DNA from: Candidatus Micrarchaeota archaeon | GTDB taxonomy: Archaea; B1Sed10-29; JAJSAI01 | DNA length: 64,000 bases | Direction of reading: 5' to 3' | Assembly: GCA_964625085.1 (NCBI GenBank) | Contig: CAZVAJ010000001.1 | Location: forward strand, 37,708-101,707 | Part shown: piece by piece, positions 6,906 through 63,199 of the stretch | Layout: the number at the start of each line of letters is the position of its first letter | Position numbering within the stretch: the stretch's first letter is position 1 | Program-made: the position numbers and the translations under genes | Notes under the pieces: model-generated | Told to the model about the DNA's origin: nothing | The model's input: only the letters and a program-made list of their open reading frames with translations | Databases searched by the model: none

Positions 6906-7007
6906 TTTTACCCCTTTAATCAAAAAAATCCTCGGGGGCTCTGCCCTTTTAAAACTGAGGAAGGGAACATGCCCTTATTTTCCTCAGTGAAAACGGAGAC
7001 GGATAAA

Positions 7008-8747: not shown

Positions 8748-8748
8748 A

Positions 8749-11944: not shown

Positions 11945-11953
11945 GTGATCTAA

Positions 11954-12365: not shown

Positions 12366-12366
12366 C

Positions 12367-26113: not shown

Positions 26114-26172
26114 ACTCTAAGAAAGGAAAAAGGAGTATTTATTACTTGCCTGATGAATAAGTAGGAAGAAAA

Positions 26173-27081: not shown

Positions 27082-27148
27082 GGCTTTTAAACGTGACCAT
27101 CCTAAGGTAAAAAGCCGGGCAGCTTATTCTTGCCGGAGGTGAAAGACC

Positions 27149-27430
27149 ATGACAGACCTGAAAGAAAAAATAAACCAAATAATCCTCCTGATGGACCCGA
27201 TAATAGAGGATAATGGAGTTCCAAGAAACATCAAAAGAATCATTAGCGAGAGTAAAGAAAACCTGCTGTCAGCATCTGACAAAGGAACCGAAGAGATGGA
27301 AATGAAAATCGCAGGAGCAGTTTACTCCCTTGAAGAAATCTCTAACGACATAAACATGCCATTTCACATAAGAACAGAAATCTGGAACCTGATCTCAGAA
27401 CTTGAAAAACTGAAAGAAGAACTGAAATAA
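27149..27430 (+). CDS. UPF0147-family small archaeal protein (tentative)
   Basis: 93-aa helical protein carrying VPRNIKRII, a motif I associate with the UPF0147 family. Confidence 0.4.
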   Translation: MTDLKEKINQIILLMDPIIEDNGVPRNIKRIISESKENLLSASDKGTEEMEMKIAGAVYSLEEISNDINMPFHIRTEIWNLISELEKLKEELK

Positions 27431-27540
27431 CAACCTTTTTTTACGGGGAAACGTCTAGATTACCTTGGTGTAAAAAAAATGAGTGGGCGCCGTTATATGC
27501 AAACCGGACACGCGCGTAATACTCAGAAACATTTTCGAGC

Positions 27541-28683: not shown

Positions 28684-28735
28684 ACCTAACGCGACATTTT
28701 TCCAGACACATGGGAAAGGTTTAATAAAGCCTTGG

Positions 28736-28804
28736 GTGTAATCTCTTCTGAGGTTACACTCAGTTCAGCTTCTTTTGGGCTTTGGGGGCTCCTCTCCCCC
28801 CAAA
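28736..28804 (+). terminator. two tandem stable hairpins with a T-tract between tyrS and the PolD operon (putative terminator or attenuator)
   Basis: GTGTAATCTC-ttct-GAGGTTACAC at 28736..28759, and TTTGGGGG-ctcctct-CCCCCAAA at 28781..28804. CTTCTTTT lies between them. Confidence 0.3.
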
Positions 28805-28836
28805 GTCCTGCCAAAAACAGTGGACAGTGTATAGTA

Positions 28837-30311: not shown

Positions 30312-33300
30312 TGAACACATTGCTTGAAAGAACAGAGTGGTACTGGCAACACATGCAAGATAAAACAGAAGAAGCCTACAAGATAGCGGGAGCAGCAAGA
30401 GCAACTGGAAAAGACGTATCAACCAAAGTAGAGATCCCTCCTGCAGCAGATCTTGCAGCAAGAGTAGAAGGACTAGTCGGACCCAAAGGAGTAGCAGAAA
30501 AGATCAGAGAACTGCTGAAAGAAAACGATAGAGACACAATGACCCTAAGGATCATAGACCTGATAGTAAAAGGGACATTTGGGAAGTATGAAACAGAGGA
30601 GCAACTGGCAGAACAGTGCATTCGAACAGGGCTCGCAATAATAACAGAAGCAGTACCTGCCGCAGCCACAGAAGGAATCTCCCACACCAAAATCCTAGAC
30701 AACCCTGACGGCACAAGATGCCTTTCCGTGTACTACGCCGGACCAATAAGGTCAGCAGGAGGAACTGCTGCCGCTCTTTCAGTGGCTCTCGCAGACTACA
30801 CCAGAAGAAAAATGGGCCTGCAGGAATACAGACCCTCAAAAGAGGAAGTTGAAAGGTATGTTGAAGAAATAGGATTATACCATAACCTTGTTTCTAGGCT
30901 CCAGTACAATCCCCCTGAAGATGACATCAGACACATTGTCTCAAACTGCCCTGTTTGTGTAAGTGGAACACCCACCTCCGAACTTGAAGTAAGCGTTTAC
31001 AAGAACCTTCAGAGAATGGAAACAAACAGAATAAGGGGGGGAATGGCCTTAGTAATAGCAGAAGGAATAGCCCAAAAAGCAGCTAAGCTGCTGAAGTACT
31101 CCAAAAAATTTGAGCTCGGGTGGGACTGGATAGAAGCGATAGTCAAGGTAACAAAAAAAACAGGGGAAAAGAGAGAGATAAAACCAGTAACAAAATATCT
31201 CTCAGACATTGTGGGAGGCAGGCCCATATTCGCGTACCCCAGTCAAACAGGAGGACTCAGAATAAGGTACGGGAGAAGCAGGAACACAGGCCTTAACGCA
31301 AAAGGAGTGAACCCTGCCACGATGTACCTGACGAACGAGTTCATGGCCATAGGAACCCAACTGAAGCTCGAGCGGCCGGGCAAAGGGTGTGTCACGGTCC
31401 CTGTGAGTACTGTAGAAGGGCCCACGATCCTTCTCGACAATGGAGATGTAGTAAAAGTAAACACAGCCTCTAAAGCAATGGAAGTAAAAGACCGCGTTGC
31501 AGAGATTCTCTTCCTAGGAGACATCCTAATAAGCCACGGAGACTTTCTCAAATCCAACCACCCTCTTGTAAAACCAGGCATATGCGAAGAATGGTGGCAG
31601 CAGATATGTAAAGAGAGGGGTATAGGCGTTAATGACGCGTGGAACGTCAGTTCTGAAAAAGCAGTGGAACTGGCAAGGCAAGGTGCCCCAATGCACCCGA
31701 AGTACACATATTTTTACAATGCAGTGTCTTCAGACGATTTGCTTGAAATGGCAAGATGGCTCTCGAATGGCAGGATAACAAAAATGCACGGGATTGCAGG
31801 AGAACAAAGCAGGGTACTGGAAGTAGAAGTGTCAGAAGAAAAAAGGACTCTTGAAAGAATAGGTGTACCCCACAAGCTCAGAGGAGGAAAAGTGATAATA
31901 GAAGAAGCAGGCCCTCTGATAGAAACACTCTGCCTCACGCACATCAATGATCTATCTCTTCAAGAAGAAAACGTCCTTGAGTCTTTATCAAAAGCGAGCG
32001 GCATGGAGATAATGGAAAAAGAAGGCACATTCATCGGAGCCAGGATGGGCAGGCCTGAAAAAGCAAAACCAAGAAAAATGAACCCGCCCCCGAACCTGCT
32101 ATTCCCAATAGGAAAAAACGGTGGGAAGACAAGAACACTGCTAAAAGCAGCTGAGAAAGGAGTGATCTCAGTAGAAGCGGTCAGGTTGAAATGCCCTAAG
32201 TGCGGCAGGGAAACCATGAGCTATTACTGTCATGATTGCGGAGTGAGGACCGAAAGAGTATTCACCTGCACAAAGTGCGGCAAAAAAGGAAAATCAGAAA
32301 AATGCCCTTACTGCGGAGAACACGCAATACCCTACGCCTTCTTGCCATATGACCTGAAAAAAGCTGTGAAAGACGCTGAAAACAGGTTAGGAGAAAGGAC
32401 TCCTGAAAAAACAAAAGCAGTAGAAGGCTTGATAAACGGAGAAAAGATATTCGAGCCCATAGAAAAGGGAATACTGCGCGCAAAACACAATGTAGTAGTA
32501 TTCAGGGATGGAACAATAAGATTTGACGCAACAAACCTTCCCCTCACGCACTTCAAACCAAGGGAGATAGGAATAAGCGTAGAAAAGGCCAGAGAAATTG
32601 GGTACACGCATGACAAAGACGGTAAGCCCCTTGAAGACCCTGACCAAGTATGCGAGATGTTCGTGCAGGACATGATAATACCTGCAGAATCTGCTGAATA
32701 CATCCTCTCAGCAGCACAGTTCGTTGACGACCTGCTTGAAAAGTTCTATGGACTCCCAAGATACTATAACGCAGAGAAACCCTCTGACTTGGTAGGCCAT
32801 CTTGTGATAGCTCTAGCGCCCCACATCTCGGTCGGCGTTCTTGGAAGAATAATCGGGTTCAGCAGGGCCAGAGGAACCTACGCTCATCCGTACATGCACG
32901 CCGCATGCAGAAGAGACTGCTTTTCTCCGGAGGAAACCCTCCCGGTCTACGACGGGAAAGAGTGGAAAATAGTACAGATAGGCCCGTTCGTCGAGTCCCT
33001 GCTCTGCAGAAGAGAACCTAGAAAGACAGAGTTCGGAGACTGGGTGCTCCCGGTCGAAGGATACTATACTCTCGCCCTGAACCCCAAAACAAGAGAGTAC
33101 GAGCTCAAAAGGATCACTGCTTTCTCGAAACACGTTCCCCAGGACCACATGGTGGAAATAGTCCTCTCTGACAACAGGAAAATAAGGACCACAGGAACCC
33201 ACAAGTTCCCTGACCCTTCCTTTGGCAGGGTAAGAGCGCACGAGCTCGAGGAAGCATTGGTTCCGATGAAATTCAACATTCCTGAAAAAGATCCTGAAAG

Positions 33301-35107
33301 CATAGACTTGATGAACGCAAGAATAGAAGGGCTCATGGTCAGAGGAGCTGCGGGAATCCTTAGAAAATGGGTTCAGGAAAACGGAGGGTTCACCAAAGCC
33401 TCTGAAAAAATAGGCATCCCAAGATCCACTCTCTCAGATTACTGTTACAGGGACTCAGTCCCAGCAGAACTTCTGAAAACGCTTGGCTTGAAGGCGCCTG
33501 AAAACACAAGGGTTGGAGTGAAAAAAGATCATGTCACGCTTCCCAGGATCATCAGAGTAGACGAGCACTTGGCCAGGCTTCTCGGCTTCTACGCTGCAGA
33601 GGGCTACGCGCGGCACAGGGACAGAGAATACCAGACCGTCTTCTGCAACAAGAAACTAAAAGAAGGGGTCAAAAAAGAGCTGGAAAAGGCGCTTGGGATC
33701 CAGAAAACGTGGGAGAACGAATACGAGCTCGTGGTATCAAGCAGGATAATGTACGAGCTGTTCACGCGGGTCCTGGGCGCTGGAAAAAACGCCTACGAGA
33801 AGAGGGTTCCAAGCGTGCTTCTTGGGGCTAGAAAAGAGCTTGTCAAAGAGTTCCTCAGGGCCTACTTTGCTGGAGACGGGTGCATCTCCCGCGCAGGCAA
33901 CAGATCGCCTGAAGTATCCTGCACCAGCGTCTCCAAGATGTTGCTGAGGGATATCGAATTTCTACTAGCGCGCTTCAGCATAGCCACAAGCTGGTACGGG
34001 GCAGAACGGACTTCAAAAGGAAACGGGGTTGTGGCGTCCTGGTACTCAGAAAGGGGAAGGATCCTAACGACAAAAGAGTACAAGCTGAGGATGTACTCTG
34101 AAAACGCCAAGAAGTTCGTGGAAGAAGTAGGATTCTGGGATCCTGACAAGAACGCTAAAGCGAGAAAAATCCTGAGCGAGGCCAGGATCAAGGGCTCGAA
34201 AGCGAGGGTGGTGGGAGAGTCTAAAATCGTGCGGGCGAAGGAGATTAGAATAACCGAGAACAAAGAACTTGCACCCTCGTACAACCTTACTGTTGAAGAC
34301 CATCATAATGTAATAACTTCAGGAATCACAACCTTCCAATGTGACGGTGACGAAGACGCGTTCATGCTGTTACTTGACGCTCTCCTGAACTTCAGCAGAA
34401 GATACCTGCCAAGCTCAAGAGGCGGCACGATGGACGCGGCCATCGTGCTGACAACAAAAATAGACCCTGGAGAGGTGGACGATCAGGTTCACGAAATGGA
34501 CATAGTTTCAGAGTATCCTCTTGACTACTACCAAGCAGCGTGCAACAACCTAAACCCTTCTGACGTGAACGTGGAGCTAGTCAAAGACAGGCTGGGAACA
34601 AAAGAACAGTACTATGGAATGAAGTACACCCATGATACTGATAGGGTTGATGAGGGTCCTGTAGAATCAGCGTACACGACCCTAAAAACAATGGCTGAAA
34701 AAGTTGAGAAGCAGCTTGAGCTAGGGGAAAAGATCTTGGCAGTTGATGAAAGGGACCTTGCCAGCAGGGTGATTAACTTTCACTTCATGCGTGACATGAT
34801 GGGAAACCTAAGAGCATTTGGCCAGCAGGCCGTTAGGTGTGTTGATTGTAACAAAGTGTACAGGAGAACACCTCTTGCAGGAAAGTGCGTAAAATGCGGA
34901 GGGAGACTGGTACTGACAGTGAGCAAGGGAGGCATAGTAAAGTATCTTGAAGTCTCCAAAAACATTGCCAAAAAATACCACCTGTCCGACTACCTGAAAC
35001 AAAGGCTCATACTAATAGAAAATGATGTGAAAAGTTTCTTCGAGCTTGAAGAAATGGAAAAACGCGCAGAAGCAAAGAAACAGAAAAGCCTGGCTGAATT
35101 CGTGTAA
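30308..35107 (+). CDS. polC: DNA polymerase D large subunit DP2, interrupted in-frame by an intein
   Basis: 1599 aa. DP2 conserved blocks including HPYMHAA-RRD | CDGDEDAFMLLLDALLNFSRRYL and C-terminal zinc fingers CVDCNKVYRR...CVKCGG. A 474-aa insertion sits at the RRN/CDGDEDA site. Confidence 0.85.
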   Translation: MMNTLLERTEWYWQHMQDKTEEAYKIAGAARATGKDVSTKVEIPPAADLAARVEGLVGPKGVAEKIRELLKENDRDTMTLRIIDLIVKGTFGKYETEEQLAEQCIRTGLAIITEAVPAAATEGISHTKILDNPDGTRCLSVYYAGPIRSAGGTAAALSVALADYTRRKMGLQEYRPSKEEVERYVEEIGLYHNLVSRLQYNPPEDDIRHIVSNCPVCVSGTPTSELEVSVYKNLQRMETNRIRGGMALVIAEGIAQKAAKLLKYSKKFELGWDWIEAIVKVTKKTGEKREIKPVTKYLSDIVGGRPIFAYPSQTGGLRIRYGRSRNTGLNAKGVNPATMYLTNEFMAIGTQLKLERPGKGCVTVPVSTVEGPTILLDNGDVVKVNTASKAMEVKDRVAEILFLGDILISHGDFLKSNHPLVKPGICEEWWQQICKERGIGVNDAWNVSSEKAVELARQGAPMHPKYTYFYNAVSSDDLLEMARWLSNGRITKMHGIAGEQSRVLEVEVSEEKRTLERIGVPHKLRGGKVIIEEAGPLIETLCLTHINDLSLQEENVLESLSKASGMEIMEKEGTFIGARMGRPEKAKPRKMNPPPNLLFPIGKNGGKTRTLLKAAEKGVISVEAVRLKCPKCGRETMSYYCHDCGVRTERVFTCTKCGKKGKSEKCPYCGEHAIPYAFLPYDLKKAVKDAENRLGERTPEKTKAVEGLINGEKIFEPIEKGILRAKHNVVVFRDGTIRFDATNLPLTHFKPREIGISVEKAREIGYTHDKDGKPLEDPDQVCEMFVQDMIIPAESAEYILSAAQFVDDLLEKFYGLPRYYNAEKPSDLVGHLVIALAPHISVGVLGRIIGFSRARGTYAHPYMHAACRRDCFSPEETLPVYDGKEWKIVQIGPFVESLLCRREPRKTEFGDWVLPVEGYYTLALNPKTREYELKRITAFSKHVPQDHMVEIVLSDNRKIRTTGTHKFPDPSFGRVRAHELEEALVPMKFNIPEKDPESIDLMNARIEGLMVRGAAGILRKWVQENGGFTKASEKIGIPRSTLSDYCYRDSVPAELLKTLGLKAPENTRVGVKKDHVTLPRIIRVDEHLARLLGFYAAEGYARHRDREYQTVFCNKKLKEGVKKELEKALGIQKTWENEYELVVSSRIMYELFTRVLGAGKNAYEKRVPSVLLGARKELVKEFLRAYFAGDGCISRAGNRSPEVSCTSVSKMLLRDIEFLLARFSIATSWYGAERTSKGNGVVASWYSERGRILTTKEYKLRMYSENAKKFVEEVGFWDPDKNAKARKILSEARIKGSKARVVGESKIVRAKEIRITENKELAPSYNLTVEDHHNVITSGITTFQCDGDEDAFMLLLDALLNFSRRYLPSSRGGTMDAAIVLTTKIDPGEVDDQVHEMDIVSEYPLDYYQAACNNLNPSDVNVELVKDRLGTKEQYYGMKYTHDTDRVDEGPVESAYTTLKTMAEKVEKQLELGEKILAVDERDLASRVINFHFMRDMMGNLRAFGQQAVRCVDCNKVYRRTPLAGKCVKCGGRLVLTVSKGGIVKYLEVSKNIAKKYHLSDYLKQRLILIENDVKSFFELEEMEKRAEAKKQKSLAEFV
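32918..34339 (+). mobile_element. intein in DP2 with LAGLIDADG homing endonuclease; Cys1, TxxH block B, C-terminal ...TTFQ (Gln, no penultimate His), +1 Cys
   Basis: Begins CFSPEE directly after extein RRD. Block B is TGTHKF. The two LAGLIDADG motifs are LLGFYAAEGYA and FLRAYFAGDGCIS. Block G is YNLTVEDHHNVITSGITTFQ, followed by extein CDGDEDA. Confidence 0.75.
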
Positions 35108-35118: not shown

Positions 35119-35877
35119 CTAGAATCCTCCGCCGAGAAGCAGGTATATCAAAACAGCGAGCATTAAAAATATCATGGCCCACCTGAACCATGGCTTTGAA
35201 AGAATGCCTTTACCTTCTCCTTTTTTGGAGGCGGTCTTGCCAAGCACGCTGAACGTTTTCTTCAAAAGAACTGCCCAGCCCTTGGGGCTCTTCATCAGGT
35301 CAACGGTCTCTTTTAGCATGTCCTTCCATGTCTTCTCCTTGATGGGAATCTCTGACTCGTTCAGGATAACCCCGCTGAACCCGTCAACGTCAAGCTTGTA
35401 GAATCCTGCAGGCATGGAAACGAAAACTCTCCAAACTGGCCAGTAGATTATCCTGAACCCGCTTGTCTTAACGCTTTCTTCACCAACTCCGAACTTGCCT
35501 GCAAGCCTTCTTGCAGCAGTCTCCTTTGCTTCGTCTGCTTTTATGGCTGGAGGAACTGCAATAAACTTTAAATCATGTGAAACTTTCTTCTCAAAAGAAA
35601 CAGGCTGCCGGTCAAGAAGTTCTGTTATCATAGGCTGTAGTTTTCCTGAAGACGCATCCATAGCCATGGTTCCCGAAAACCCTTGGGAAAACGTTTGGCC
35701 TTGAAGCTCTTGCTCTACAAGAACATCATAATTGAAAACATAAAAAGGAAGATAATACAGCTTAAGGCTGCTTATCTCAAAGTCTGTCCACCTCTTGCTC
35801 CTCAGGCTCTTGTCAACGGTTTCCACAACATCGTCAACAAGGTACCTGAGGACAAGGGCTGGCTTGTCAAGGATCAA
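35119..35877 (-). CDS. hypothetical protein with C-terminal tail-anchor TM helix, co-oriented directly downstream of sepF
   Basis: 252 aa, soluble-looking apart from the final WAMIFLMLAVLIYLLLGGGF helix. Starts 7 nt after the sepF stop. Confidence 0.4.
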   Translation of the reverse strand: MILDKPALVLRYLVDDVVETVDKSLRSKRWTDFEISSLKLYYLPFYVFNYDVLVEQELQGQTFSQGFSGTMAMDASSGKLQPMITELLDRQPVSFEKKVSHDLKFIAVPPAIKADEAKETAARRLAGKFGVGEESVKTSGFRIIYWPVWRVFVSMPAGFYKLDVDGFSGVILNESEIPIKEKTWKDMLKETVDLMKSPKGWAVLLKKTFSVLGKTASKKGEGKGILSKPWFRWAMIFLMLAVLIYLLLGGGF

Positions 35878-35883
35878 GCCCTA

Positions 35884-36234
35884 TCACTTTTTGGATATTT
35901 TTATCCTGCTCGGGGTCAAAAGGACCTTCTCTTCAGTTATCCTTGCTATATCCCCGTCCATTTCTAAAACTGCTCCTTTAAGCTCTGAGATCGCTTGCTT
36001 TAGCTTTACTGTGTTCTTTTTGTACAATGGGCTGATGTTAAGAAGGATTATATTTCCTCTCCTGAGCTCGGATGTAATATCCTCAACATCACCTACAGAT
36101 TCCAGAGTCAGGGGCTTTACCCACATATCAGCATGCTCTTCAAGAAGATCCTCTTCTTCAAGCGCAAGATTGTCCAAATAGTCTTCTATGTCAACACTTT
36201 TGTTTGATTTTAGCTTACCCAACAGTGCAGGCAT
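35884..36234 (-). CDS. sepF: cell division protein SepF (DUF552)
   Basis: 116 aa with LRRGNIILLNISPL and GAVLEMDGDIARITEEKVLLTP, matching SepF core motifs. Confidence 0.7.
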   Translation of the reverse strand: MPALLGKLKSNKSVDIEDYLDNLALEEEDLLEEHADMWVKPLTLESVGDVEDITSELRRGNIILLNISPLYKKNTVKLKQAISELKGAVLEMDGDIARITEEKVLLTPSRIKISKK

Positions 36235-36357
36235 TGCATTACCTCCAGCTATTTTATTAGTTATTTTTTAGTCACAGTAGTTTAAAACACTTACCATAAA
36301 AAACGTTTTTATACTAGTAGTCTTATAATTCCTGTAACCTTTTTTTGGTGGGGGAAA

Positions 36358-37569
36358 ATGGATATAGAGGACCTGTTTGAAAAAGAAATGCAGAAAGACA
36401 CCGTCTTTCTGGACCGGAACGTTCTAAGCCCCCATTTTGTTCCAGAAACGCTTCCCCACAGAGACAAACAAATACAAGAGCTCATGCAAAAGCTGGCTCC
36501 CTCGCTTTCGGGAAAAACAATAAGCAACATTTTCTTGTACGGAAAAACAGGCACTGGAAAAACAGTGTCCACAAAGCATGTTATCGACAAGCTAATGGCC
36601 GTGAAAAAAAAGTACGGTGCCAGCGTAGAATGCGTTTACACCAACTGCAGAATCCTTAACACAAAATACCAGGTGATGCTTAAGGTAGCAGAATACTGCC
36701 ATCCTGATGAATCGTTTCTCGGGTTCCCTTTCTCGCACCTGTTCCAAAAAATAGTGGACTACGTGCAGTCTAACTCTTTGGGCCTTATACTGGTGCTTGA
36801 TGAAGTTGACAAAGTAAAAAACCTGGATGACTTGGTTTACACAATAACCCGGGCCAATGACGAGCTTGCGGCCGGCGGGATAAGCATGATAGGCATTTCT
36901 AACAACATAGCGTTCAAGGAATCGCTTGACCCGCGGAGTAAAAGCGCTCTTTCAGAAGACGAGATAGTCTTCCCGCCGTACAACGCAGAAGAGCTAAAAG
37001 ATATTTTGGAACAGAGGGTAAAACTTGGTTTCAAGCAGGGAACGATTGACGAGTCAAGCATAAACTATGCCAGCGCGCTCGCGGCCAATGAATCAGGAGA
37101 CGCCAGGTATGCCCTCAGGCTATTGTTCAAAGCCGGTGAAATAGCAGACCTGGAAGGAGCAAAAAAAGTGACTGACAAACACGTTGAACTCGCAAGAAAA
37201 GGGGTTGAGAACGAGATAGTGTACAGTGTTGTGAAAACACTTCCAGAACACCAAAAAATCCTTCTTCATGCAATAGCCCAACTTTCTAAAGAAGGAGGAC
37301 ACTACGCGAGGCTTGATGGCACAACAGCAGAAAACGTGCTGTTCACAGGAGAAGTATACGACAGGTACAACAAGATCTGCAGGGTTCTTGGAAAAGAGCC
37401 CAGGACCGCGAGATGGTGCAAAGAGTACATGAACGAGCTTGAAATGCTTGGGCTCATTACCACCACCATTTCAGGAAAGGGAGTTAGAGGCAACACAACC
37501 TTGATACGGTTAGCTTATCCTGCACAGAACATCATAGACCTAATGAAAAAACAGTTTGGAGGAGAATAG
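36358..37569 (+). CDS. orc1: Orc1/Cdc6 replication initiator (403 aa, canonical length)
   Basis: Walker A GKTGTGKT, Walker B LVLDEVD, sensor motifs and a C-terminal winged helix. An AT-rich TATA-like upstream region lies at 36235..36357. Confidence 0.85.
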   Translation: MDIEDLFEKEMQKDTVFLDRNVLSPHFVPETLPHRDKQIQELMQKLAPSLSGKTISNIFLYGKTGTGKTVSTKHVIDKLMAVKKKYGASVECVYTNCRILNTKYQVMLKVAEYCHPDESFLGFPFSHLFQKIVDYVQSNSLGLILVLDEVDKVKNLDDLVYTITRANDELAAGGISMIGISNNIAFKESLDPRSKSALSEDEIVFPPYNAEELKDILEQRVKLGFKQGTIDESSINYASALAANESGDARYALRLLFKAGEIADLEGAKKVTDKHVELARKGVENEIVYSVVKTLPEHQKILLHAIAQLSKEGGHYARLDGTTAENVLFTGEVYDRYNKICRVLGKEPRTARWCKEYMNELEMLGLITTTISGKGVRGNTTLIRLAYPAQNIIDLMKKQFGGE

Positions 37570-54713: not shown

Positions 54714-54932
54714 TCAAGACACCTGATCCTGCTGTTGCTGATCATGTCTATCACAAGATAAAACTTCACTAACAAGCCCCCACGGAATTGTGTCTCTCAC
54801 CTTCATCTTAAGTTCTTTTATGCTCTTGCACGTGATTTCTTTCCTGTTTAACGTGATCCTGTACTCCCCGCTGGCGTTCTCGTGCTCTATTATCAGCCGG
54901 CAGTCTCCTTGGAATATTATTAAGGTATTCAT
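54714..54932 (-). CDS. hypothetical small protein (72 aa) between the large surface protein and the pilin
   Basis: ATGA-coupled to the upstream 819-aa ORF. No recognisable motif. Confidence 0.3.
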   Translation of the reverse strand: MNTLIIFQGDCRLIIEHENASGEYRITLNRKEITCKSIKELKMKVRDTIPWGLVSEVLSCDRHDQQQQDQVS

Positions 54933-57388
54933 AGTGTTCTCCTTACAAGCTTTTTCTTGTTCTGTTTCTTCAGCATGAAAAACGAGAACGCTGCAAAGCC
55001 CAATGGAACCGCGTAGTAGGAGTAGTTATTGGATTCTGTTTTTTCCTGAGAAGTTTTATCCTCTTCTTTTTCAGAGCCCTCAGAGAGCTTTAGGGCAGAC
55101 TCTTCTGCTTGCTGTTCTTCAATTACTGGTTCTTCTATTATTGGTTTTACTTCAGGCCGGGTGATAGGAGCTGGTGTGTCAGGAGCGGGCTTAAGAAGAG
55201 ACTGCACGGCAAAATCAGTGTACTCAGGCTGGCTGGTAAACGAATACTCTGGTTTATCGGCAGGTGGCTGGTCCCCGTTGATTATTGTGGGCGTGTATTC
55301 TGTTGTGGTGGTTTCAGCAGGAGCTGAAAGAACCGCTGCCAGTGTTTTGACCTCTCCCTGATTCAAAGAAGATATTAGGAACAGGATTCTGCCATCGTGT
55401 TGTATGCATGAATTGCATGACTCAACATCTGCTTCTACTGGATACGATAACAAGATGTTCTTCAGACTGGCTCCTGGGTTGATTACCCTTATCCTGAACA
55501 CCTGATCTGTTCTTGAAGACTGTGAAATAAGCCAGCATGGCTTGGTGTACAAAACCGTTGCCTTGCTAACAGCAGTTTCTCCTTCAGGAAGTATCACGGG
55601 CAGAGGAGACGTTATCTGGTACTCTTTCTCGTAGTACACTTTTTCGTTGTCTGCCTTTACTTGCTCGTTCCTGATCACCTTGCATTCTGGGCGCGCGAGT
55701 AGGCTGATGTTAACCGCTTTCTCTGCACTTGAGAAATGTTTTTCCTGAGAGTTGTCAGGAAAGAACAGACCTGGAGGAAGCTTGATGTTTGCTTGGTACG
55801 CTGTGGTTTTTGGGCCTGTGAACATGATTGTTGCGTTGATGTATGTTTCGGCACTGCAGGGGAGGGGATTTGTCGGAAGCAGCAGTGAATACCCTGAACT
55901 GATAGTGGCCAGCTGTTTATCCAGGTCCAGCAGGATGTCCTGGTATTCTTTGATGATGTTTCCTATATTATCATCAAGGTCGGACTGGTCTGCTTTCAAA
56001 AGCCGGTAGTGTATTCTGTCAAGGAACTCTTCGCTTGCACCTGCTGTTTTAAGTGTGTAGTACTTTTCCCATGCCTTGGCTGAAAGTTGTCTTGCTATCT
56101 CCTTGTATTCTTCCAGTTTTTCTTGCATCCCTCTCAAGCGGTTTTTGAGTATTCCCCTGGAGTCAGGGCTTGAGTCATCAGGCCAATCTGGCTTGCATTC
56201 GATGCCCACAGACCTGAGGGAAGCGCATAGTTTCTCAGCAAGCTTTTTCTCCTGGTCTGGTGTGGAGTGTGTTTTTTCTGAAAAGGTTATGCATTTTTTC
56301 AGCAGGTTTATTCGCTCTCCCAGCTTTCTGCTCGTACTTGAGCAAACCTGTTTTGCAAGTGGGTATAATGCGCTTTCCGGGTTTGCTTGAGAAAACTTTT
56401 GCCTGGCTTGCGCGCGCAGGACCGGCTCTGTTTCAACCGCTTGCTGCAGCGCGCCCTCCAAAGAAAGCAGGATGCTGGAAGCATTAGTGTTGTAACCATG
56501 CAGAAGGATTATTGCCTTTGCTTTCCTCCCGTTCGCGTACATCACTGAGAATTTTTTCATTCTTCCGTCATGCGCTGCTAACCAGGATGTTGCAATGTAG
56601 TATGCTTGTTTAACGCTCATGTTTCCTGATGATGATATCTCACGCTGTTCTAAGGGCAGCGAGTCCCACACCACCATGTCAAGGGCATTACTCTCGTACT
56701 CTTTTACCCTGTAACTGAGTCTTGTGCTGAGTTCTTCTGAAGTCTGCTTTTCTTGCTTGTACTCTGCTTCTATTTCTTGCAAGGCATGGAGAAACCTTTT
56801 ATGCTGCGAGAACATCAGTGTGAACAAAGAATCAGGGTATCCTACAAGAGTATTGTACACGTTGCCTCCTGCCGAAGCGAGGTTAAGGTCCTTCCTAACT
56901 TTTTCAGCGTTTTCTCCGAGCATCATCTTGTTGGAGCCTGCTTCTTTCACTGCTTTTACTGTTTCCTTTAGATCAAGGTAAACTGGTTTGGCCTTGCCCG
57001 AATACTCTTGGTCTGCTACCCCCATTTCTTCAAGCACTTCAGCATCTTTTTCGATCAACACGGCCATGCCGCTGAACGCCTGGGAAGCATCATAATACAC
57101 TTGTTCTAACTTTGCTTTGCAGTAGCTTGACAAGAACAGGCTGCTTTCAGCTTCTTTCAGGTACAAGGCCAGCATGTCCCTGGTCTCGTTCTTCGCGTTT
57201 TCTGCATCATACCATGCTTTTGACAGGCTTTGCAGGTAGTACTCTTTTCCAGGAGCGTCGTACGCCTGCAGGCTTGCGGGAATGTTGGGCGGTGTGTTGA
57301 GTTCTGTTATTCTTGACTGATAGTCTGAAACTGAAAGAAGGCCATTCAACGCCAAGCCGATTAGTATGGCCTGTATTACAGGAGCCAT
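54929..57388 (-). CDS. large secreted surface protein (819 aa) with Thr/Pro/Glu-rich linker and C-terminal PGF-CTERM-like sorting signal
   Basis: Sec signal peptide and a helical ectodomain. The C-terminus is a TTTEYTPT...PAPDTPAPITRPEVKP linker followed by VPLGFAAFSFFMLKKQNKKKLVRRTL (motif, TM, basic cluster). Confidence 0.6.
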   Translation of the reverse strand: MAPVIQAILIGLALNGLLSVSDYQSRITELNTPPNIPASLQAYDAPGKEYYLQSLSKAWYDAENAKNETRDMLALYLKEAESSLFLSSYCKAKLEQVYYDASQAFSGMAVLIEKDAEVLEEMGVADQEYSGKAKPVYLDLKETVKAVKEAGSNKMMLGENAEKVRKDLNLASAGGNVYNTLVGYPDSLFTLMFSQHKRFLHALQEIEAEYKQEKQTSEELSTRLSYRVKEYESNALDMVVWDSLPLEQREISSSGNMSVKQAYYIATSWLAAHDGRMKKFSVMYANGRKAKAIILLHGYNTNASSILLSLEGALQQAVETEPVLRAQARQKFSQANPESALYPLAKQVCSSTSRKLGERINLLKKCITFSEKTHSTPDQEKKLAEKLCASLRSVGIECKPDWPDDSSPDSRGILKNRLRGMQEKLEEYKEIARQLSAKAWEKYYTLKTAGASEEFLDRIHYRLLKADQSDLDDNIGNIIKEYQDILLDLDKQLATISSGYSLLLPTNPLPCSAETYINATIMFTGPKTTAYQANIKLPPGLFFPDNSQEKHFSSAEKAVNISLLARPECKVIRNEQVKADNEKVYYEKEYQITSPLPVILPEGETAVSKATVLYTKPCWLISQSSRTDQVFRIRVINPGASLKNILLSYPVEADVESCNSCIQHDGRILFLISSLNQGEVKTLAAVLSAPAETTTTEYTPTIINGDQPPADKPEYSFTSQPEYTDFAVQSLLKPAPDTPAPITRPEVKPIIEEPVIEEQQAEESALKLSEGSEKEEDKTSQEKTESNNYSYYAVPLGFAAFSFFMLKKQNKKKLVRRTL

Positions 57389-59469: not shown

Positions 59470-60711
59470 CTAGTATGATAAACCAGGATAAAGGGGATAC
59501 CTTGAAAGCAGTTCTTTGACCTCTGAAGCCACCTTTTTTATCACTTCCATGTTGTCAATGTTCTCCAGTACTCTTATCATAAGTTCTGCAACATGACGCG
59601 CATTTTCTTCTTTCATACCCCTTGTGGTTATGGCAGGAGTTCCTATCCTAATACCGCTGGGGTCAACCGGCTTTCTTTTGTCAAACGGGATCATGTTCTT
59701 GTTGACTGTTATTCCTGCTTGTTCAAGAGCGTCCTGCGCTTGTTTTCCGCTCAATCCTTTTTCTGCAACATCGATTAGGAACAGGTGATTGTCAGTACCC
59801 CCTGTCACCAGCCTGTAACCATAATCAAGAAAAACATCTGCCATTGCCTTTGCGTTTTTAACGACCTGTGCTTGGTACATCTTGAAATCCGGCTGCATAG
59901 CAAGCTTGAAGCACAAGGCTTTTGCTGCTATCGTGTGCTCATGAGGCCCTCCTTGCAGAACTGGGAAAACAGCCTTGTCTATTTTCTTGGCGTGCTCCTG
60001 CTTGCACAGGATAAGTCCGCTTCGCGGGCCTCTTAGTGTTTTGTGAGTGGTTGTTGTGACAGCGTCACAGTATGGGACCGGGCTTGGGTGCAGTCCTGCA
60101 GCAACCAGTCCTGCAATATGCGCGATGTCTGCCACGCAGTATGCCCCTACCTCGTCTGCTATCTCCTTGAATGCTTTGAAGTTTATTATCCTCGGGTAGG
60201 CGCTTGCTCCGCACACGATCATTTCAGGCTTTTCCTGTCTGGCCTGCCCCAGTATCTTATCATAGTCGAGCATTTCTGTTTCAGGATCAACATCATAGGA
60301 GAGCCCTTGGTAGTATTTTCCTGAAACGCTCATTTTGTAGCCGTGACTCAGGTGACCACCTGAGGCCAGACTCATGCCAAGTATCTTGTCCCCTGGCTTG
60401 AGCAGGGCAAGGTAAACCGCGAGATTGGCAGGACAGCCTGACAATGGCTGCACGTTAGCGTGCTCTGCTCCAAATAACTGCTTGGCCCGGTTTATAGCCA
60501 GCTGTTCTATCCTGTCAATATGCTGATTGCCGCCATAGTACCGTTTTCCAGGGTACCCTTCTGCGTACTTGTTTGTGGGAACAGAGCCCATCGCCTCAAG
60601 CACTTCCCCTGGAACAAAGTTTTCTGATGCTATCAGTTCTATCGTGTTCCTCTGTCTCTCAAGCTCTTTTTCCAGAATTCCCGCAAGCTCAGGGTCAGTA
60701 TCACGGATCAT
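59470..60711 (-). CDS. glyA: serine hydroxymethyltransferase
   Basis: PLP-lysine motif [11 protein letters not shown] and overall SHMT conservation. 413 aa. Confidence 0.9.
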
Positions 60712-61298
60712 TTTTCCACCTTTGAGAGTATCTCTTTGTGTATGTCTTCAGGTGACCTGAGCGCGTTATTCTTAACGCAGTCAATCACTTTCCACCCTTG
60801 TTTTTCCGCGATCTCCAGGTACTTGAGCCGGACAGTTTTTTGGTAGGGCATGTCAAGCTCGTGCAGATCTTTTTCTTTTTCTCTCATCAGCATTTCAGAA
60901 ACCTCTGCAGGCATGTTCATCAAAAAAACAGCGTCAGGGTTAGGAAGCCTGCTGGCACAGCTGGTTATCCAGTCTTCTAAAAGTTCTCCTCCTGGCCTTG
61001 CTGTTTGGTACGCGAGGTTTGAGTACCAGTACCTGTCGCACACGAGCACCCCTTCTTGCGAGATTTTTTCCACGCTCTTTTTTTTCGCGTACATGTCAAG
61101 CAGGTAAAGCAGGATCGCTTCTTCTGGAGGATGTTTTCCTGTTGTCAGGTAATTTTTTATGAATGCGCCGTACTCGGAACCGTAGTCAGGAAACGTTAGG
61201 TACTCTGCTTTAAGCCCTTGTTTCTTGAAAGCTGAAACAAGCATTTTCGCTTGAGTTTCTTTACCAGTCGCGTCTGCTCCTTCAATTACTATGAACAT
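60708..61298 (-). CDS. tmk: thymidylate kinase
   Basis: P-loop [13 protein letters not shown] and DRY motif. ATGA overlap with glyA. Confidence 0.85.
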
Positions 61299-62653
61299 TA
61301 TACCACCTTAGGATCTTTTTCCAACGGCCCATGCCATCTGTCCAGTTCATTCCGTTCTCTCAAGGTTCTTTCGCAGTAGCCGCAAGGGTTGCGTTCAGGG
61401 CAGTATCCGTACACTACTCCTTGCGGTTCTGCCCATTTTCCCAGCGCAGGATTACGTTCCTTTATTTTGCAGGCGATCTGTTTTGCTATTTCTCTTATTT
61501 CCCACTGTGCTTCAAAACAGGTTCTTTTTCCTATAGAGTGTATTGCATTCCAGCCGTTCACGTGAATCAAGTCATACAGTTTAAGGGCGTGGGGAACCAA
61601 CCCTATTGCATTGTTCCTGCCAATATTTTCTTTTTCTTCCTTGTAGGCTGATAAAAGCTGGCCTGCTAGATCCTTAAACTCTTTCCCAAAACCTCTTGAC
61701 TCGACCGTGACAGGCAGGACCAGTTCCTCTCTTTCTGCTGCTGAAAAGATTGATTCTACGGCATGGTCCCAAGTTCTTTGCCTGATAGCCTGGTGGAATG
61801 CTGCAAGAGACATTCCTGCAAGAAACCCTTGCAGGTGGCAGCCGTTGTGAGAATGTTTCAGAAGAGACAGCAGTGCTTCATCGCGTTCAGCTACTGCTTT
61901 TTGTATAATCCCTTCAGGTATAGGGTGTTCCACGAGCTTCACTTCATTACTTTTGTTAGCCTGAACTATTTCATCCATTAGCGGATTGTCAGAGTACAAC
62001 TGTGATGATGGATACCACGCGAGCACTTCATAGTTGTATCCCCAGTTCCTGAAAAGGCCTGGTGCGGTTTCTTCCGCCTTCTCGCGCATGCTTTTCACAA
62101 CTTCTTTTACTTCTGAAGGGGCGTCAGAGTGTTCTGTCATCCAGAACAGGTGGGAGAGTTCCCTTGCGTTTCCCGCGGTCTGGATGTTTGTTTTAGTGTA
62201 CAATGGCAGGATGTACCTGGCGTCTTCTCCTGGAACTCCTGCTTTTTTCATTTCCTCGTACAGTTTGAAAGCGTCTGACATGAGTTCTGCTGATTCCTTT
62301 CCCATTCCTTCTGGAACGTGAAATCCTCTGTCAGCACTGGCCCTCCGAAGGGACTGCTGCAAGTGCATCAGATATTGGGGCAGGCATAACTGCAGGGTCG
62401 CTGCCCTTGAAAGATCCCTGATGCTGAAGATGAATATGTTCTGATCCTGCACTGATCCGTGGCCTCTTCCTGCAGAATTTTTTAACACACCTCTTACCTT
62501 TTTCTTGTCCTGCTTGTAGTCCTCGTACAAGGACAAAGAATCAAGCTGTTCAAAACAACCTAAAGCTCCGAAGGCAGAGGTTTCTTCTGGGCTGGGGCCT
62601 TCCCGCCCGTTTACAGAAAACAAACTAACCGTTGGCATGGAAGTAATAAGCAC
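61298..62653 (-). CDS. thyX: tandem-domain ThyX-like flavin-dependent thymidylate synthase (N-domain degenerate; C-domain RQR-x7-S instead of RHR-x7-S; extra C-terminal Cys cluster)
   Basis: The C-terminal half has AAFHQAIRQRTWDHAVES, aligning with the ThyX FVARQWFRHRIASYNELS motif. The N-terminal half keeps a ThyX-like HGSVQDQNIFIFSIRDLSRAA block but has no RHR. Ends CPERNPCGYCER. Co-oriented with tmk and glyA. Confidence 0.5.
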   Translation of the reverse strand: MLITSMPTVSLFSVNGREGPSPEETSAFGALGCFEQLDSLSLYEDYKQDKKKVRGVLKNSAGRGHGSVQDQNIFIFSIRDLSRAATLQLCLPQYLMHLQQSLRRASADRGFHVPEGMGKESAELMSDAFKLYEEMKKAGVPGEDARYILPLYTKTNIQTAGNARELSHLFWMTEHSDAPSEVKEVVKSMREKAEETAPGLFRNWGYNYEVLAWYPSSQLYSDNPLMDEIVQANKSNEVKLVEHPIPEGIIQKAVAERDEALLSLLKHSHNGCHLQGFLAGMSLAAFHQAIRQRTWDHAVESIFSAAEREELVLPVTVESRGFGKEFKDLAGQLLSAYKEEKENIGRNNAIGLVPHALKLYDLIHVNGWNAIHSIGKRTCFEAQWEIREIAKQIACKIKERNPALGKWAEPQGVVYGYCPERNPCGYCERTLRERNELDRWHGPLEKDPKVV

Positions 62654-62707
62654 AAAAAGTATATAATGATTAGTCCATGTAAAAACAGGTTCTGCGGATG
62701 CTGCTTT

Positions 62708-63199
62708 TTACTCTGATTTTTTAAGCCTTTCGTTCAGCACTTTGTGCATGTGTTCTCTCAGTTCTCCTTTTCCTCTGCGCACCAGTGAACGTGAGGTGAA
62801 CAGTTCATGGTACTCTTTTGGCCCAAGCTTATTCTTCAGACTTTTTGTCACCTTATAAAAATCAGTCTTACTGCCTAACATCTCTGATAAAACAGCGGGA
62901 TCTACTTTTTGTCCTGTTCCTTTTTTGTACTCCTGAGCAAACATTAGCGCAGCGTATTCGTTTGCTGAAAGGTCAACTGTCTTCCTTGTTTTCACATTAC
63001 CTATTACCGCGGGAATTTTTCCTTCTTTAACAAGCTTTCTGAACTTTTGGACTGCTGTGGGTTTAGACAAGCCTGTTAACTTGAGAATCTGCTCAAGCGA
63101 AGGAGGATGCCTGTATTTGTTAAAGTAGTCAAAGTATGCTTCTTCAAAATTTTTCTTTTTAGGCCTTCTTCTTGCTGTTGGCATAGTAGAATAAGGCAC
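62708..63199 (-). CDS. hypothetical basic protein with HTH-like segment (163 aa)
   Basis: LEQILKLTGLSKPTAVQKF resembles a helix-turn-helix. No confident family assignment. Confidence 0.3.
   Translation of the reverse strand: MPYSTMPTARRRPKKKNFEEAYFDYFNKYRHPPSLEQILKLTGLSKPTAVQKFRKLVKEGKIPAVIGNVKTRKTVDLSANEYAALMFAQEYKKGTGQKVDPAVLSEMLGSKTDFYKVTKSLKNKLGPKEYHELFTSRSLVRRGKGELREHMHKVLNERLKKSE

What the first reader, a model, noticed from the sequence alone, without database searches (positions are those of the whole stretch)
61298..62653. Tandem ThyX-like protein with RHR changed to RQR and a C-terminal Cys cluster, next to tmk and glyA
The 451-aa ORF is about twice ThyX length.
- The C-terminal half aligns to the ThyX signature region but reads RQR-x7-S instead of the nearly invariant RHR-x7-S.
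- The N-terminal half keeps a ThyX-like beta-strand block but lacks the motif altogether.
- A CPERNPCGYCER tail is appended.

Co-transcription with thymidylate kinase and SHMT argues that it is the thymidylate synthase. If so, it is a fused pseudo-dimeric ThyX with an altered active site, or it has a different methylation function.
Basis: partly seen in the sequence, partly recalled or inferred. Interest (0 to 1): 0.5.

Follow-up and report, generated by a model that had tools for sequence, protein, structure and literature searches.

The report
Tandem two-domain ThyX thymidylate synthase
This archaeal gene encodes a flavin-dependent thymidylate synthase (ThyX) built from two fused, specialised ThyX copies; two such proteins probably form a four-domain enzyme with two working sites instead of four, each next to a conserved four-cysteine site that probably binds a metal and that I found described nowhere.

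Summary
ORF 61298-62653(-) has two Thy1/ThyX domains. The C half reads RQR-x7-S, the N half has no RHR, and the gene overlaps tmk and glyA start-to-stop.

It belongs to a family of about 450-aa proteins. At least 342 homologues were found, in about 66 clusters at 50% identity. They come from DPANN archaea and CPR/Patescibacteria and are already auto-annotated 'FAD-dependent thymidylate synthase'.

The two halves have lost complementary sets of catalytic residues:
- The C half keeps R78, R80 and R174 (T. maritima numbering).
- The N half keeps H53, S55, S88, R90, R147 and R165.

With the published three-subunit active site, a dimer of the tandem protein should give two complete and two dead sites. 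A second tandem family in Clostridia shows the same split but keeps RHR.

The 'Cys tail' is not an add-on. C379, C418, C424 and a fourth Cys that moves between positions form a Cys4 site. It is inherited from a large clade of single-domain ThyX and is absent from every solved ThyX structure.

Function as thymidylate synthase is well supported by gene context and by a Tmk-ThyX fusion protein. Absence of another thyA or thyX could only be checked in the 64-kb window.

Verdict: a new variant of a known kind, of moderate interest. The undescribed Cys4 site is the most novel element.

The parts
61298..62653 (-). Tandem ThyX ORF. It has 451 codons from the GTG. The stop codon TAA is at 61298-61300.
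62636..62638 (-). Probable true start codon, ATG (Met6 of the 451-aa numbering), giving a 446-aa protein.
   Evidence: Gene callers start here (P0001). Sequence read.
62660..62666 (-). TATA-box-like TTATATA about 25 nt upstream of the ATG. It is the probable archaeal promoter of a leaderless thyX-tmk-glyA transcript. This is inferred, not tested.
62060..62593 (-). N-terminal ThyX domain, residues 21-198. It keeps H65, S67, R83, S101, R103, R146 and R164. These are the substrate-loop residues and the residues that contact the neighbouring subunit's FAD. It lacks RHR and the R174 equivalent.
62342..62383 (-). LPQYLMHLQQSLRR, the N-half counterpart of the ThyX motif. RHR is replaced by LPQ. S101 and R103 (Tm S88 and R90) are kept. 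The lid residue Tyr91 is replaced by R104.
61940..62059 (-). Conserved inter-domain linker, residues 199-238. N207, Y208, E209, L211, W213, P215, Q218 and N223 are nearly invariant.
61439..61939 (-). C-terminal ThyX domain, residues 239-405. It keeps R291, R293, R377 and the QWEI helix. These are the flavin-binding and dUMP-activating residues. It lacks the equivalents of H53, S55, R90, R147 and R165.
61751..61783 (-). RQRTWDHAVES, the ThyX motif with His replaced by Gln. R291, Q292 and R293 are invariant in 121 of 121 family members.
61517..61525 (-). R377-T-C379. R377 is the equivalent of Tm R174. C379 is the first ligand of the Cys4 site.
61373..61426 (-). PQGVVYGYCPERNPCGYC, the C-terminal part of the Cys4 site. 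C418 and C424 are invariant. C427 is the mobile fourth ligand; in other family members the fourth Cys sits at position 412 instead.
60708..61298 (-). tmk (thymidylate kinase). Its start overlaps the thyX stop (TAATG).
59470..60711 (-). glyA (serine hydroxymethyltransferase). Its start overlaps the tmk stop (ATGA).

Best explanation
The gene encodes the cell's flavin-dependent thymidylate synthase (dUMP + CH2-H4folate + reductant -> dTMP). It is co-expressed with SHMT, which makes the one-carbon donor, and with thymidylate kinase, which consumes the product.

The protein is an ancient internal duplication of ThyX whose two halves have divided the labour:
- The C half supplies the 'subunit A' residues: RQR, which binds the FAD phosphate and ribityl groups, and R377 (Tm R174), which sits on dUMP.
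- The N half supplies the 'subunit B' residues: the H65/S67 loop and R164, which contact the neighbouring FAD.
- The N half also supplies the 'subunit C' residues: R83, S101, R103 and R146, which hold dUMP.

A canonical ThyX active site is built from three of the four subunits. A homodimer of the tandem protein would therefore reproduce the D2 tetramer with exactly two complete sites (C half + two N halves) and two empty ones.

Each live site lies next to a Cys4 centre (C379, C418, C424, C427) that most likely binds a metal.

Shown: domain identity, fold, residue pattern, family-wide conservation, Cys ligand swapping and gene context.
Inferred: dimerisation, the two-site stoichiometry, metal binding and catalytic competence with Gln for His79 and Arg for Tyr91.
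For: **Domains and fold**
- Thy1 domains in both halves; TIGR02170 above its cut-off.
- AF2 model with pLDDT 91.5 and pTM 0.90. Best PDB matches are T. maritima ThyX chains (TM-score 0.77 on the target) and PolB.

**Active-site roles**
- Residue roles per subunit are taken from PMC6514825.
- The alignment and the conservation table show complementary retention at 99-100% in 117 family members. The same pattern appears in 21 members of a second tandem family.
- All of these residues are 100% conserved in 44 single-domain relatives.

**Context**
- thyX-tmk-glyA with overlapping codons.
- thyX-glyA in the 78%-identical relative.
- dCMP deaminase-tmk-thyX-deoC in a bacterial member.
- A natural Tmk::tandem-ThyX fusion protein.

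**Cys4 site**
- In 119 of 119 complete close-family sequences the fourth Cys is either at position 412 (76) or at 427 (43), never both and never neither.
- In 184 tandem proteins there are never fewer than four Cys from R-x-C to the C-terminus.
Against: - No biochemical data exist for any member.
- His79 of the near-invariant RHR is Gln, and the Tyr91 lid is Arg. Either change could alter flavin handling or reactivity.
- The quaternary structure is not predicted here. No multimer model could be run and no model coordinates were available.
- The assignment of Tm R147 to the 'C' role rests on my recollection of the T. maritima structure, not on a text read here.
- Absence of a second thymidylate synthase was checked only in 64 kb.
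- Two family members have no nucleotide-metabolism neighbours.
Confidence: 0.72

Rival explanations
1. It is a ThyX-fold flavoenzyme with a different substrate or chemistry. Examples would be a UMP or dCMP C5-methylase like PolB, or a hydroxymethylase. The RQR and Tyr91-to-Arg changes would then reflect that new specificity.
For: - PolB, a UMP/dUMP methylase, is among the best structural matches.
- Two active-site positions differ from canonical ThyX in the whole family.
- ThyX-like domains with non-TS roles have been proposed elsewhere: the ThyX-MSRB fusions in PMC6211008.
Against: - Every dUMP- and FAD-contacting Arg and Ser is retained in the composite site.
- The neighbours are tmk, glyA, dCMP deaminase and deoC, and there is a Tmk fusion. 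That is precisely the dTMP pathway.
- The sister tandem forms with RHR and Tyr kept share the same architecture.
- No antibiotic or modification gene cluster lies nearby.
Confidence: 0.08
2. The tandem protein works as a monomer, or the N half is only a structural scaffold. The complementary pattern would then be a by-product of decay of one copy.
For: - A single chain already contains one copy of each residue set.
- The AF2 monomer is confident on its own.
Against: - The published ThyX site needs three subunits, with the B and C roles on different chains. One N half cannot fill both roles around the same FAD.
- The N half has as many invariant residues as the C half, including all B-role and C-role residues. 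That is selection, not decay.
Confidence: 0.1
3. The conserved cysteines are not a metal site. They would instead form disulfides or be redox-active thiols. A related point, which is not truly a rival to the main model but is the key open question: if they do form a metal site, it may be a purely structural Zn that pins the C-terminal tail.
For: - No metal was measured.
- Nitrososphaerota, which are mostly aerobes, also carry the four Cys. That fits Zn better than an O2-labile cluster.
- The C-x5-C-x5-C spacing is not a classical ferredoxin motif.
Against: - The count is always at least four, with a migrating fourth ligand. That is typical of tetra-coordinate metal sites, not of disulfide pairs.
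- The proteins are cytoplasmic and mostly from anaerobes.
- The Cys site is kept only in the half whose flavin site is alive and lost in the N half in both tandem families. This hints at a link to catalysis rather than fold stability alone.
Confidence: 0.1

Closest known systems
Canonical homotetrameric ThyX/FDTS, e.g. T. maritima TM0449 (PDB 1O26) and M. tuberculosis ThyX (2AF6/3GWC)
   Same: - Same fold and same Pfam and TIGRFAM families.
- Same FAD- and dUMP-contacting residues when the two halves are taken together.
- Same pathway context.
   Different: - Two fused and diverged domains (about 25% identity to each other) instead of one.
- Two predicted active sites per four-domain particle instead of four.
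- RHR is RQR.
- The Tyr91 lid is Arg.
- A Cys4 site is present that is absent from all solved ThyX structures.
Single-domain ThyX of Bathyarchaeia, Thermoplasmata, Deltaproteobacteria, Atribacteria and Desulfurella (loci L012, L019, L014, L026, L056)
   Same: - Closest single-domain relatives, 31-37% identity.
- Same R-x-C ... P-x-C ... C-P-E ... C cysteine pattern.
- Same 'SR' and 'THQ' variants around the motif.
   Different: One domain carries every catalytic residue (100% in 44 sequences). RHR and Tyr are kept.
Second tandem ThyX family in Clostridia/Oscillospiraceae and Desulfobotulus alkaliphilus (L011, L016, L028, L037, L049)
   Same: - Same two-domain architecture.
- Same complementary loss of residues.
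- Same Cys4 site in the C half only.
- The C halves of both families group together in 81% of NJ bootstraps.
   Different: - About 25% identity to the window protein.
- Keeps RHR, and keeps Tyr after S-x-R.
- Keeps R165 in both halves.
- Lacks the Mtb-R87 equivalent in the N half.
[quoted passage not shown] 2004, PNAS 101:7252; title and reference seen in PMC5954106; the paper itself is not held)
   Same: As I recall the paper, it showed that different subunits contribute different residues to one site, and that combining subunits with complementary defects can restore activity. That is what the two halves appear to do naturally.
   Different: That was an engineered in vitro mixture of point mutants. 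Here the division is fixed in one polypeptide and conserved across phyla. My description of the experiment is from memory.
Long (about 530 aa) ThyX of Chlamydia
   Same: It is possibly also a two-domain ThyX, and it has been characterised biochemically as a thymidylate synthase. This is from my memory only and was not verified with the tools.
   Different: I could not retrieve its sequence or any paper stating its domain structure. Its relation to this family is unknown.
PolB, the ThyX-like UMP/dUMP methylase of polyoxin biosynthesis (PDB 4P5A/4P5B)
   Same: ThyX fold. It ranks 4th among the structural matches.
   Different: It is single-domain and belongs to an antibiotic gene cluster. The window gene sits in a dTMP operon.

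Membership tests
ThyX / flavin-dependent thymidylate synthase (PF02511, TIGR02170) | Thy1 domain detected above the curated cut-offs | tested here: met
   - PF02511: 142 bits against a cut-off of 24.8, with both halves hitting separately.
- TIGR02170: 105.1 bits against 87.9.
ThyX / flavin-dependent thymidylate synthase (PF02511, TIGR02170) | ThyX fold (central alpha/beta domain with helical flanks) | tested here: met
   AF2 pLDDT 91.5. Foldseek top hits are T. maritima ThyX chains, with probability 1.00 and TM-score 0.77 on the target.
ThyX / flavin-dependent thymidylate synthase (PF02511, TIGR02170) | ThyX signature RHR-x7-S | tested here: not met
   - C half: RQR-x7-S. Both Arg and the Ser are kept, and His is Gln in 121 of 121 members.
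- N half: LPQ-x7-S.
- The strict motif is absent from both halves.
- Divergent tandem relatives show RHR, RER, RNR and RAR, so the middle residue is variable in this clade.
ThyX / flavin-dependent thymidylate synthase (PF02511, TIGR02170) | dUMP-binding residues (Tm S88, R90, R147, R174; Mtb R87) | tested here: met
   All are present, but split between the halves. S101, R103, R146 and R83 are in the N half. R377 is in the C half. Each is 100% conserved.
ThyX / flavin-dependent thymidylate synthase (PF02511, TIGR02170) | FAD-binding residues (Tm R78, R80, H53, S/T55, R165) | tested here: met
   R291 and R293 are in the C half. H65, S67 and R164 are in the N half.
ThyX / flavin-dependent thymidylate synthase (PF02511, TIGR02170) | Homotetramer with four active sites, each at the junction of three subunits | not testable with these tools
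   No multimer prediction or model coordinates were available. Symmetry reasoning predicts a dimer of tandem chains with two complete sites.
ThyX / flavin-dependent thymidylate synthase (PF02511, TIGR02170) | Catalyses dUMP -> dTMP with CH2-H4folate and a reduced flavin | not testable with these tools
   Only indirect evidence is available: the operon with tmk and glyA, dCMP deaminase-tmk-thyX in a relative, and a Tmk-ThyX fusion.
ThyX / flavin-dependent thymidylate synthase (PF02511, TIGR02170) | Serves as the sole thymidylate synthase (no thyA, no second thyX) | tested here: inconclusive
   tblastn with E. coli ThyA, T. maritima ThyX and a single-domain relative finds nothing else in the 64-kb window or in locus L001. 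The rest of the genome is not available.
Cys4-bearing ThyX clade (not a named family; defined here) | Cys two residues after the R174 equivalent, plus three Cys in the C-terminal segment around a C-P-E motif | tested here: met
   - C379, C418, C424 and C427 in the window protein.
- The same pattern occurs in single-domain and Clostridial tandem relatives.
- There are never fewer than four Cys in 184 proteins.
PolB-type UMP/dUMP C5-methylase | Located in a nucleoside-antibiotic biosynthetic cluster | tested here: not met
   The neighbours are tmk, glyA, TYW1, an amidohydrolase and AMMECR1.

The most novel reading that the evidence does not exclude
The Cys4 centre may be a [4Fe-4S] cluster sitting about two residues from the dUMP-activating Arg (R377). 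It would pass electrons, for example from ferredoxin, to the FAD.

If so, this tandem enzyme would be an iron-sulfur flavoprotein whose reductive half-reaction does not depend on NAD(P)H. The same would apply to the large clade of single-domain ThyX from anaerobic archaea and bacteria that shares the motif.

The tandem form would then be a natural 'half-sites' version, with the cluster kept only beside the two live flavin sites.
Probability: 0.28. Interest if true: 0.75.

Novelty: new variant of a known kind. Interest (0 to 1): 0.48.

Why it matters
ThyX is an essential enzyme with unusual flavin chemistry, and it is an antibiotic target.

- **A clean dissection of the active site.** A natural enzyme in which the roles of the three subunits that make up one active site are separated onto two different domains shows which residues act from which subunit. 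It predicts a two-site particle that could simplify mechanistic work: no site-site heterogeneity, and each role can be mutated independently.
- **The near-invariant His and Tyr are dispensable.** The family shows that the His of RHR and the Tyr lid can both be replaced.
- **A possible overlooked cofactor.** The Cys4 site is shared with hundreds of single-domain ThyX from anaerobes and is absent from every solved structure. If it binds a metal, and especially an Fe-S cluster, a large part of the ThyX family has an unrecognised cofactor and possibly a different physiological reductant.
- **Practical consequence for annotation.** Pipelines that require RHR would miss these genes in DPANN and CPR genomes and wrongly infer thymidine auxotrophy.

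Tried and rejected
- **Literature.** Nine full-text searches for tandem, fused or duplicated ThyX, Chlamydia ThyX, and Fe-S, zinc or cysteine in ThyX found no description of the architecture or of a metal site. A 2026 review of Fe-S proteins in nucleic-acid metabolism does not mention thymidylate synthase. Leduc 2004 is not held.
- **AFDB fold search.** The afdb50 library is not installed, so I could not look for named tandem ThyX such as the Chlamydia one.
- **Model coordinates.** They are not exposed. I could not measure Cys-Cys distances or see which inter-subunit interface the linker spans.
- **Genome-wide check for thyA or thyX.** This was impossible. Only the window and ±10 kb of the contig could be searched.
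- **Single origin of all tandem ThyX.** The NJ tree groups all C halves (81% bootstrap), but all N halves only weakly (40%). I treat one ancient duplication as plausible, not shown. A first bootstrap run timed out.
- **Replication origin.** I looked for origin-like repeats upstream of orc1/cdc6 and found none.
- **Rejected ideas.**
  - That the N half is a pseudo-domain: it is as conserved as the C half.
  - That the Cys tail is specific to this ORF.
  - That the PPR hits mean anything: their E-values are about 0.01 and below the cut-off.
Full report

Yes. ORF 61298-62653 on the minus strand encodes 451 codons from a GTG.

Pfam Thy1 (PF02511) matches the whole protein at 2.5e-41 in two stretches. 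Scanned separately, the halves give:

| Half | Residues matched | E-value | Profile positions |
|---|---|---|---|
| N | 21-198 | 4.6e-27 | 8-190 of 191 |
| C | 278-402 | 3.8e-13 | 63-190 of 191 |

NCBIfam's thyX equivalog TIGR02170 scores 105 bits against a cut-off of 87.9.

- The C half reads RQRTWDHAVES, which is RQR-x7-S.
- The N half reads LPQYLMHLQQSLRR at the same place. RHR is gone, but the Ser and the next-but-one Arg remain.
- CPERNPCGYC is at residues 418-427.
- The stop of thyX overlaps the start of tmk (TAATG). The stop of tmk overlaps the start of glyA (ATGA).
- Gene callers begin the protein five codons later (446 aa; P0001, 100% identical). A TTATATA element lies about 25 nt upstream of that ATG. 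A leaderless 446-aa product is therefore the more likely form.

I keep the 451-aa numbering throughout.

**2. Organism and neighbourhood**

The window is archaeal. It encodes the following:
- PolD small and large subunits, the large one interrupted by a LAGLIDADG intein
- Orc1/Cdc6
- aIF5B
- FttA
- archaeosine TGT
- a Hel308-type helicase
- TYW1 and AMMECR1

The same thyX-tmk-glyA block is found on a 112.6-kb ENA contig and on two Logan contigs. The species was not determined. The closest thyX relatives come from DPANN archaea and CPR bacteria.

**3. The family**

The 5.8-billion-protein search returned 342 homologues. The best 120 are all 403-664 aa and 46-78% identical. Where they carry a name it is 'FAD-dependent thymidylate synthase', from Micrarchaeia, Patescibacteria or Parcubacteria MAGs.

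An exhaustive phmmer search against 1.84 billion representatives gave the following counts of 50%-identity clusters:

| E-value threshold | Clusters |
|---|---|
| 1e-30 | 66 |
| 1e-10 | 300 |
| 1e-3 | 1483 |

A scan of GTDB species genomes added tandem members:
- Pacearchaeota, Saccharibacteria and Campbellbacteria
- more distant tandem forms in Geothermarchaeota (34% identity, RQR) and Nitrososphaerales (29%, RHR)

Woesearchaeota and Nitrososphaerota members are again named FAD-dependent thymidylate synthase.

So the gene is already recognised by annotation pipelines. What has not been described, as far as I could find, is its architecture and what that implies.

**4. Conservation (121 sequences)**

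Both halves are under strong constraint.

Invariant or nearly invariant in the N half:
- G62-x-G-H65-G66, D70, Q71, R83
- H97-L-Q-Q-S101-L-R103-R104
- E143-D-A-R146
- R164-E165

Invariant or nearly invariant in the C half:
- K266-H-x-H269, S282, H287-Q288
- R291-Q292-R293-T-W295
- H355, H364-x-N-G-W-N369
- K376-R377-x-C379
- A-Q-W-E-I-R
- P410-Q411
- C418-P-E420
- C424

RQR is found in 121 of 121, so the His-to-Gln change is a fixed family trait.

The two halves are only about 25% identical to each other over 85 residues. The duplication is old.

**5. Fold**

An AlphaFold2 model from a 50-sequence alignment has mean pLDDT 91.5 and pTM 0.90, and shows two alpha/beta modules. Foldseek against the PDB returns T. 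maritima ThyX chains first (probability 1.00, TM-score 0.77 normalised on the target, about 228 aligned columns, which is one half). PBCV-1 ThyX and PolB follow. No solved structure covers both halves.

**6. How the two halves fit the known active site**

The review PMC6514825 describes each ThyX site as built from three subunits:
- **Subunit A** gives the RHR motif to the FAD phosphate and ribityl groups and to the flavin. It also gives Arg199 (Mtb numbering; Tm R174) to dUMP.
- **Subunit B** gives Ser71 and Arg190 (Tm T55 and R165) to the same FAD.
- **Subunit C** gives Arg87, Ser105, Arg107 and the Tyr108 lid (Tm S88, R90, Y91), and the Gln103 backbone, to dUMP and the flavin.

I aligned the halves with the T. 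maritima sequence (checked against the PDB) and with single-domain relatives. I then tabulated each position in 117 close-family members ('D'), 21 Clostridial-type tandem proteins ('Cl') and 44 single-domain relatives. The single-domain proteins keep every role residue at 95-100%.

| Tm residue (role) | D family, N half | D family, C half |
|---|---|---|
| H53 (role not stated in PMC6514825; I infer B) | H, 100% | lost |
| S/T55 (B) | S, 85%; A, 15% | lost |
| Mtb R87 equivalent (C) | R, 100% | lost |
| R78 (A) | lost | R, 100% |
| H79 (A) | lost | Q, 100% |
| R80 (A) | lost | R, 100% |
| S88 (C) | S, 100% | S, 79% |
| R90 (C) | R, 100% | Y, 92% |
| Y91 (C, lid) | R, 99% | lost |
| R147 (dUMP phosphate) | R, 100% | I or V |
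| R165 (B) | R, 100% | W, 99% |
| R174 (A) | lost | R, 100% |
| D176 position | no Cys | C, 100% |

The Clostridial tandem family shows the same split while retaining RHR and the Tyr.

In a D2 tetramer the four sites are (A,B,C), (B,A,D), (C,D,A) and (D,C,B) in role order a, b, c. If A and D are C halves and B and C are N halves, sites 1 and 4 are complete and sites 2 and 3 lack every key residue. A homodimer of the tandem chain therefore gives a pseudo-tetramer with two live sites.

This step is inference from symmetry and the sequence pattern. I had no multimer model. My assignment of R147 to the dUMP-holding subunit comes from memory of the T. maritima structure.

**7. The cysteines**

Three findings change that picture.

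*The motif is shared with single-domain ThyX.* Single-domain ThyX from the following groups carry the same pattern: L-R-(C)-C-x-R-A-Q-W-E-I-R ... G-P-x-C ... C-P-E-G ... C.
- Bathyarchaeia, Thermoplasmata, Methanomassiliicoccales and Thermococci
- Deltaproteobacteria, Coriobacteriia and Atribacteria
- Desulfurella acetivorans and others

The first ligand sits two residues after the R174 equivalent; this is C379 in the window protein.

*The fourth ligand moves but is never missing.* In the close tandem family C379, C418 and C424 are invariant. The fourth Cys is either at position 412 ('PQC', 76 sequences) or three residues after C424 ('C-G-x-C', 43 sequences, the window protein included). It is never at both positions and never at neither, in 119 of 119 complete sequences.

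In more divergent members the fourth Cys sits 4 or 10 residues after the third. Counting from R-x-C to the C-terminus in 184 tandem-length proteins gives:

| Cys count | Proteins |
|---|---|
| 4 | 158 |
| 5 | 23 |
| 6 | 3 |
| fewer than 4 | 0 |

A ligand that migrates while the count is held at four is the signature of a tetra-coordinate metal centre.

*The site has not been seen structurally.* None of the solved ThyX proteins has these residues. Mtb reads MRASEHADVEIR and Tm reads LRADSHAQWEIQ, and their alignments stop before the Cys-rich tail.

In both tandem families the N half has lost the cysteines. The centre therefore persists only beside the live flavin sites.

Zn or Fe-S cannot be decided here:
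- The mostly anaerobic hosts and the C-P motif lean towards Fe-S.
- The presence in Nitrososphaerota and the atypical spacing lean towards Zn.

**8. Function**

The operon makes biochemical sense. SHMT produces CH2-H4folate, ThyX methylates dUMP, and Tmk phosphorylates dTMP.

Contexts seen in the family:
- The 78%-identical relative has thyX-glyA.
- A bacterial member has dCMP deaminase-tmk-thyX-deoC.
- One protein is a Tmk::tandem-ThyX fusion.
- Two other members have unrelated neighbours.

tblastn with E. coli ThyA (verified), T. maritima ThyX and a single-domain relative finds no other thymidylate synthase in the window. The rest of the genome could not be examined.

**9. Evolution**

A neighbour-joining tree of separated halves places all C halves together and all N halves together, away from the single-domain proteins.

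| Grouping | Bootstrap support |
|---|---|
| All C halves monophyletic | 81% |
| All N halves monophyletic | 40% |
| DPANN/CPR + Geothermarchaeota + Nitrososphaerales, N halves | 95% |
| DPANN/CPR + Geothermarchaeota + Nitrososphaerales, C halves | 100% |

One ancient duplication followed by subfunctionalisation is plausible but not firmly shown.

Within the tandem clade the middle residue of R-x-R varies: Q, H, E, N and A all occur. The constraint on His79 is evidently relaxed there.

**10. Comparison with what is known, and novelty**

By domain, fold and composite active site the protein is a ThyX. It fails the strict RHR-x7-S signature and presumably the 'four identical sites' property.

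Nine full-text searches and several targeted reads turned up no account of tandem ThyX, of complementary halves, or of a metal site in ThyX. The library lacks most subscription papers. I also recall, unverified, that Chlamydia ThyX is about 530 aa long, so prior mention cannot be excluded.

I rate the finding a new variant of a known kind. Interest is moderate (0.48). Function and family are ordinary and already annotated. The naturally split active site and, above all, the conserved Cys4 centre next to the catalytic Arg would interest ThyX enzymologists and are directly testable.

Noticed in passing
L012, L019, L014, L026, L056 and about 40 further loci: Single-domain ThyX from many mostly anaerobic lineages carry the same four-Cys pattern (R-x-C ... 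P-x-C ... C-P-E ... C). The lineages include Bathyarchaeia, Thermoplasmata, Thermococci, Deltaproteobacteria, Atribacteria, Coriobacteriia and the cultured Desulfurella acetivorans. No solved ThyX has it, and I found no paper mentioning it.
   Followed up: partly
L011, L016, L028, L037 (Desulfobotulus alkaliphilus, cultured), L049 and others: A second, distant tandem ThyX family occurs in Clostridia/Oscillospiraceae and a deltaproteobacterium. It has about 25% identity to the window protein and keeps RHR. It shows the same complementary loss of residues between halves.
   Followed up: partly
P0098 (664 aa): A natural fusion of thymidylate kinase (residues 13-195) to a tandem ThyX (from residue 217). 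It is a Rosetta-stone link between the two enzymes.
   Followed up: partly
window 30308-35107 (+): The PolD large subunit DP2 (1599 aa) is interrupted by an intein with a LAGLIDADG homing-endonuclease domain, around residues 916-1340. The DP1 small subunit lies just upstream at 28782-30311.
   Followed up: no
window 35878-37569: Orc1/Cdc6 (36358-37569, +) follows the PolD genes, separated from them by a minus-strand ORF (35119-35877). The 480-bp intergenic stretch upstream of it could be a replication origin. No direct or inverted repeats of at least 12 nt were found there.
   Followed up: partly
window 1-64000: There is no Rfam match at gathering threshold anywhere in the 64 kb: no tRNA, rRNA or other known RNA family.
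   Followed up: no
window 54929-57388 (-): An 819-aa ORF has no Pfam family on record. Its sequence has an N-terminal hydrophobic segment, a Pro/Glu-rich stalk and a C-terminal hydrophobic anchor followed by a KKQNKKK tail. It looks like a surface (S-layer-type) protein.
   Followed up: no
window 62708-63199 (-): A 163-aa basic protein with only weak helix-turn-helix hits (E about 0.02) lies directly upstream of thyX. A protein of 158-166 aa without Pfam hits occupies the same position in L001-L003 and L087.
   Followed up: no
window ORF residues 33 and 90 (nt 62555-62557 and 62384-62386): Two further cysteines in the N half are nearly invariant: C33 in 120 of 121 and C90 in 119 of 121. C33 aligns with a C-Y-S motif in single-domain relatives. 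C90 replaces the residue just before the lost RHR. Their role is unknown.
   Followed up: no
window 1-14000 and 26000-34000: There is a strong positive AT skew (0.3-0.42) on the + strand, where the genes are on that strand. It drops or reverses where genes switch strand. This suggests purine-rich, A-rich coding strands.
   Followed up: no
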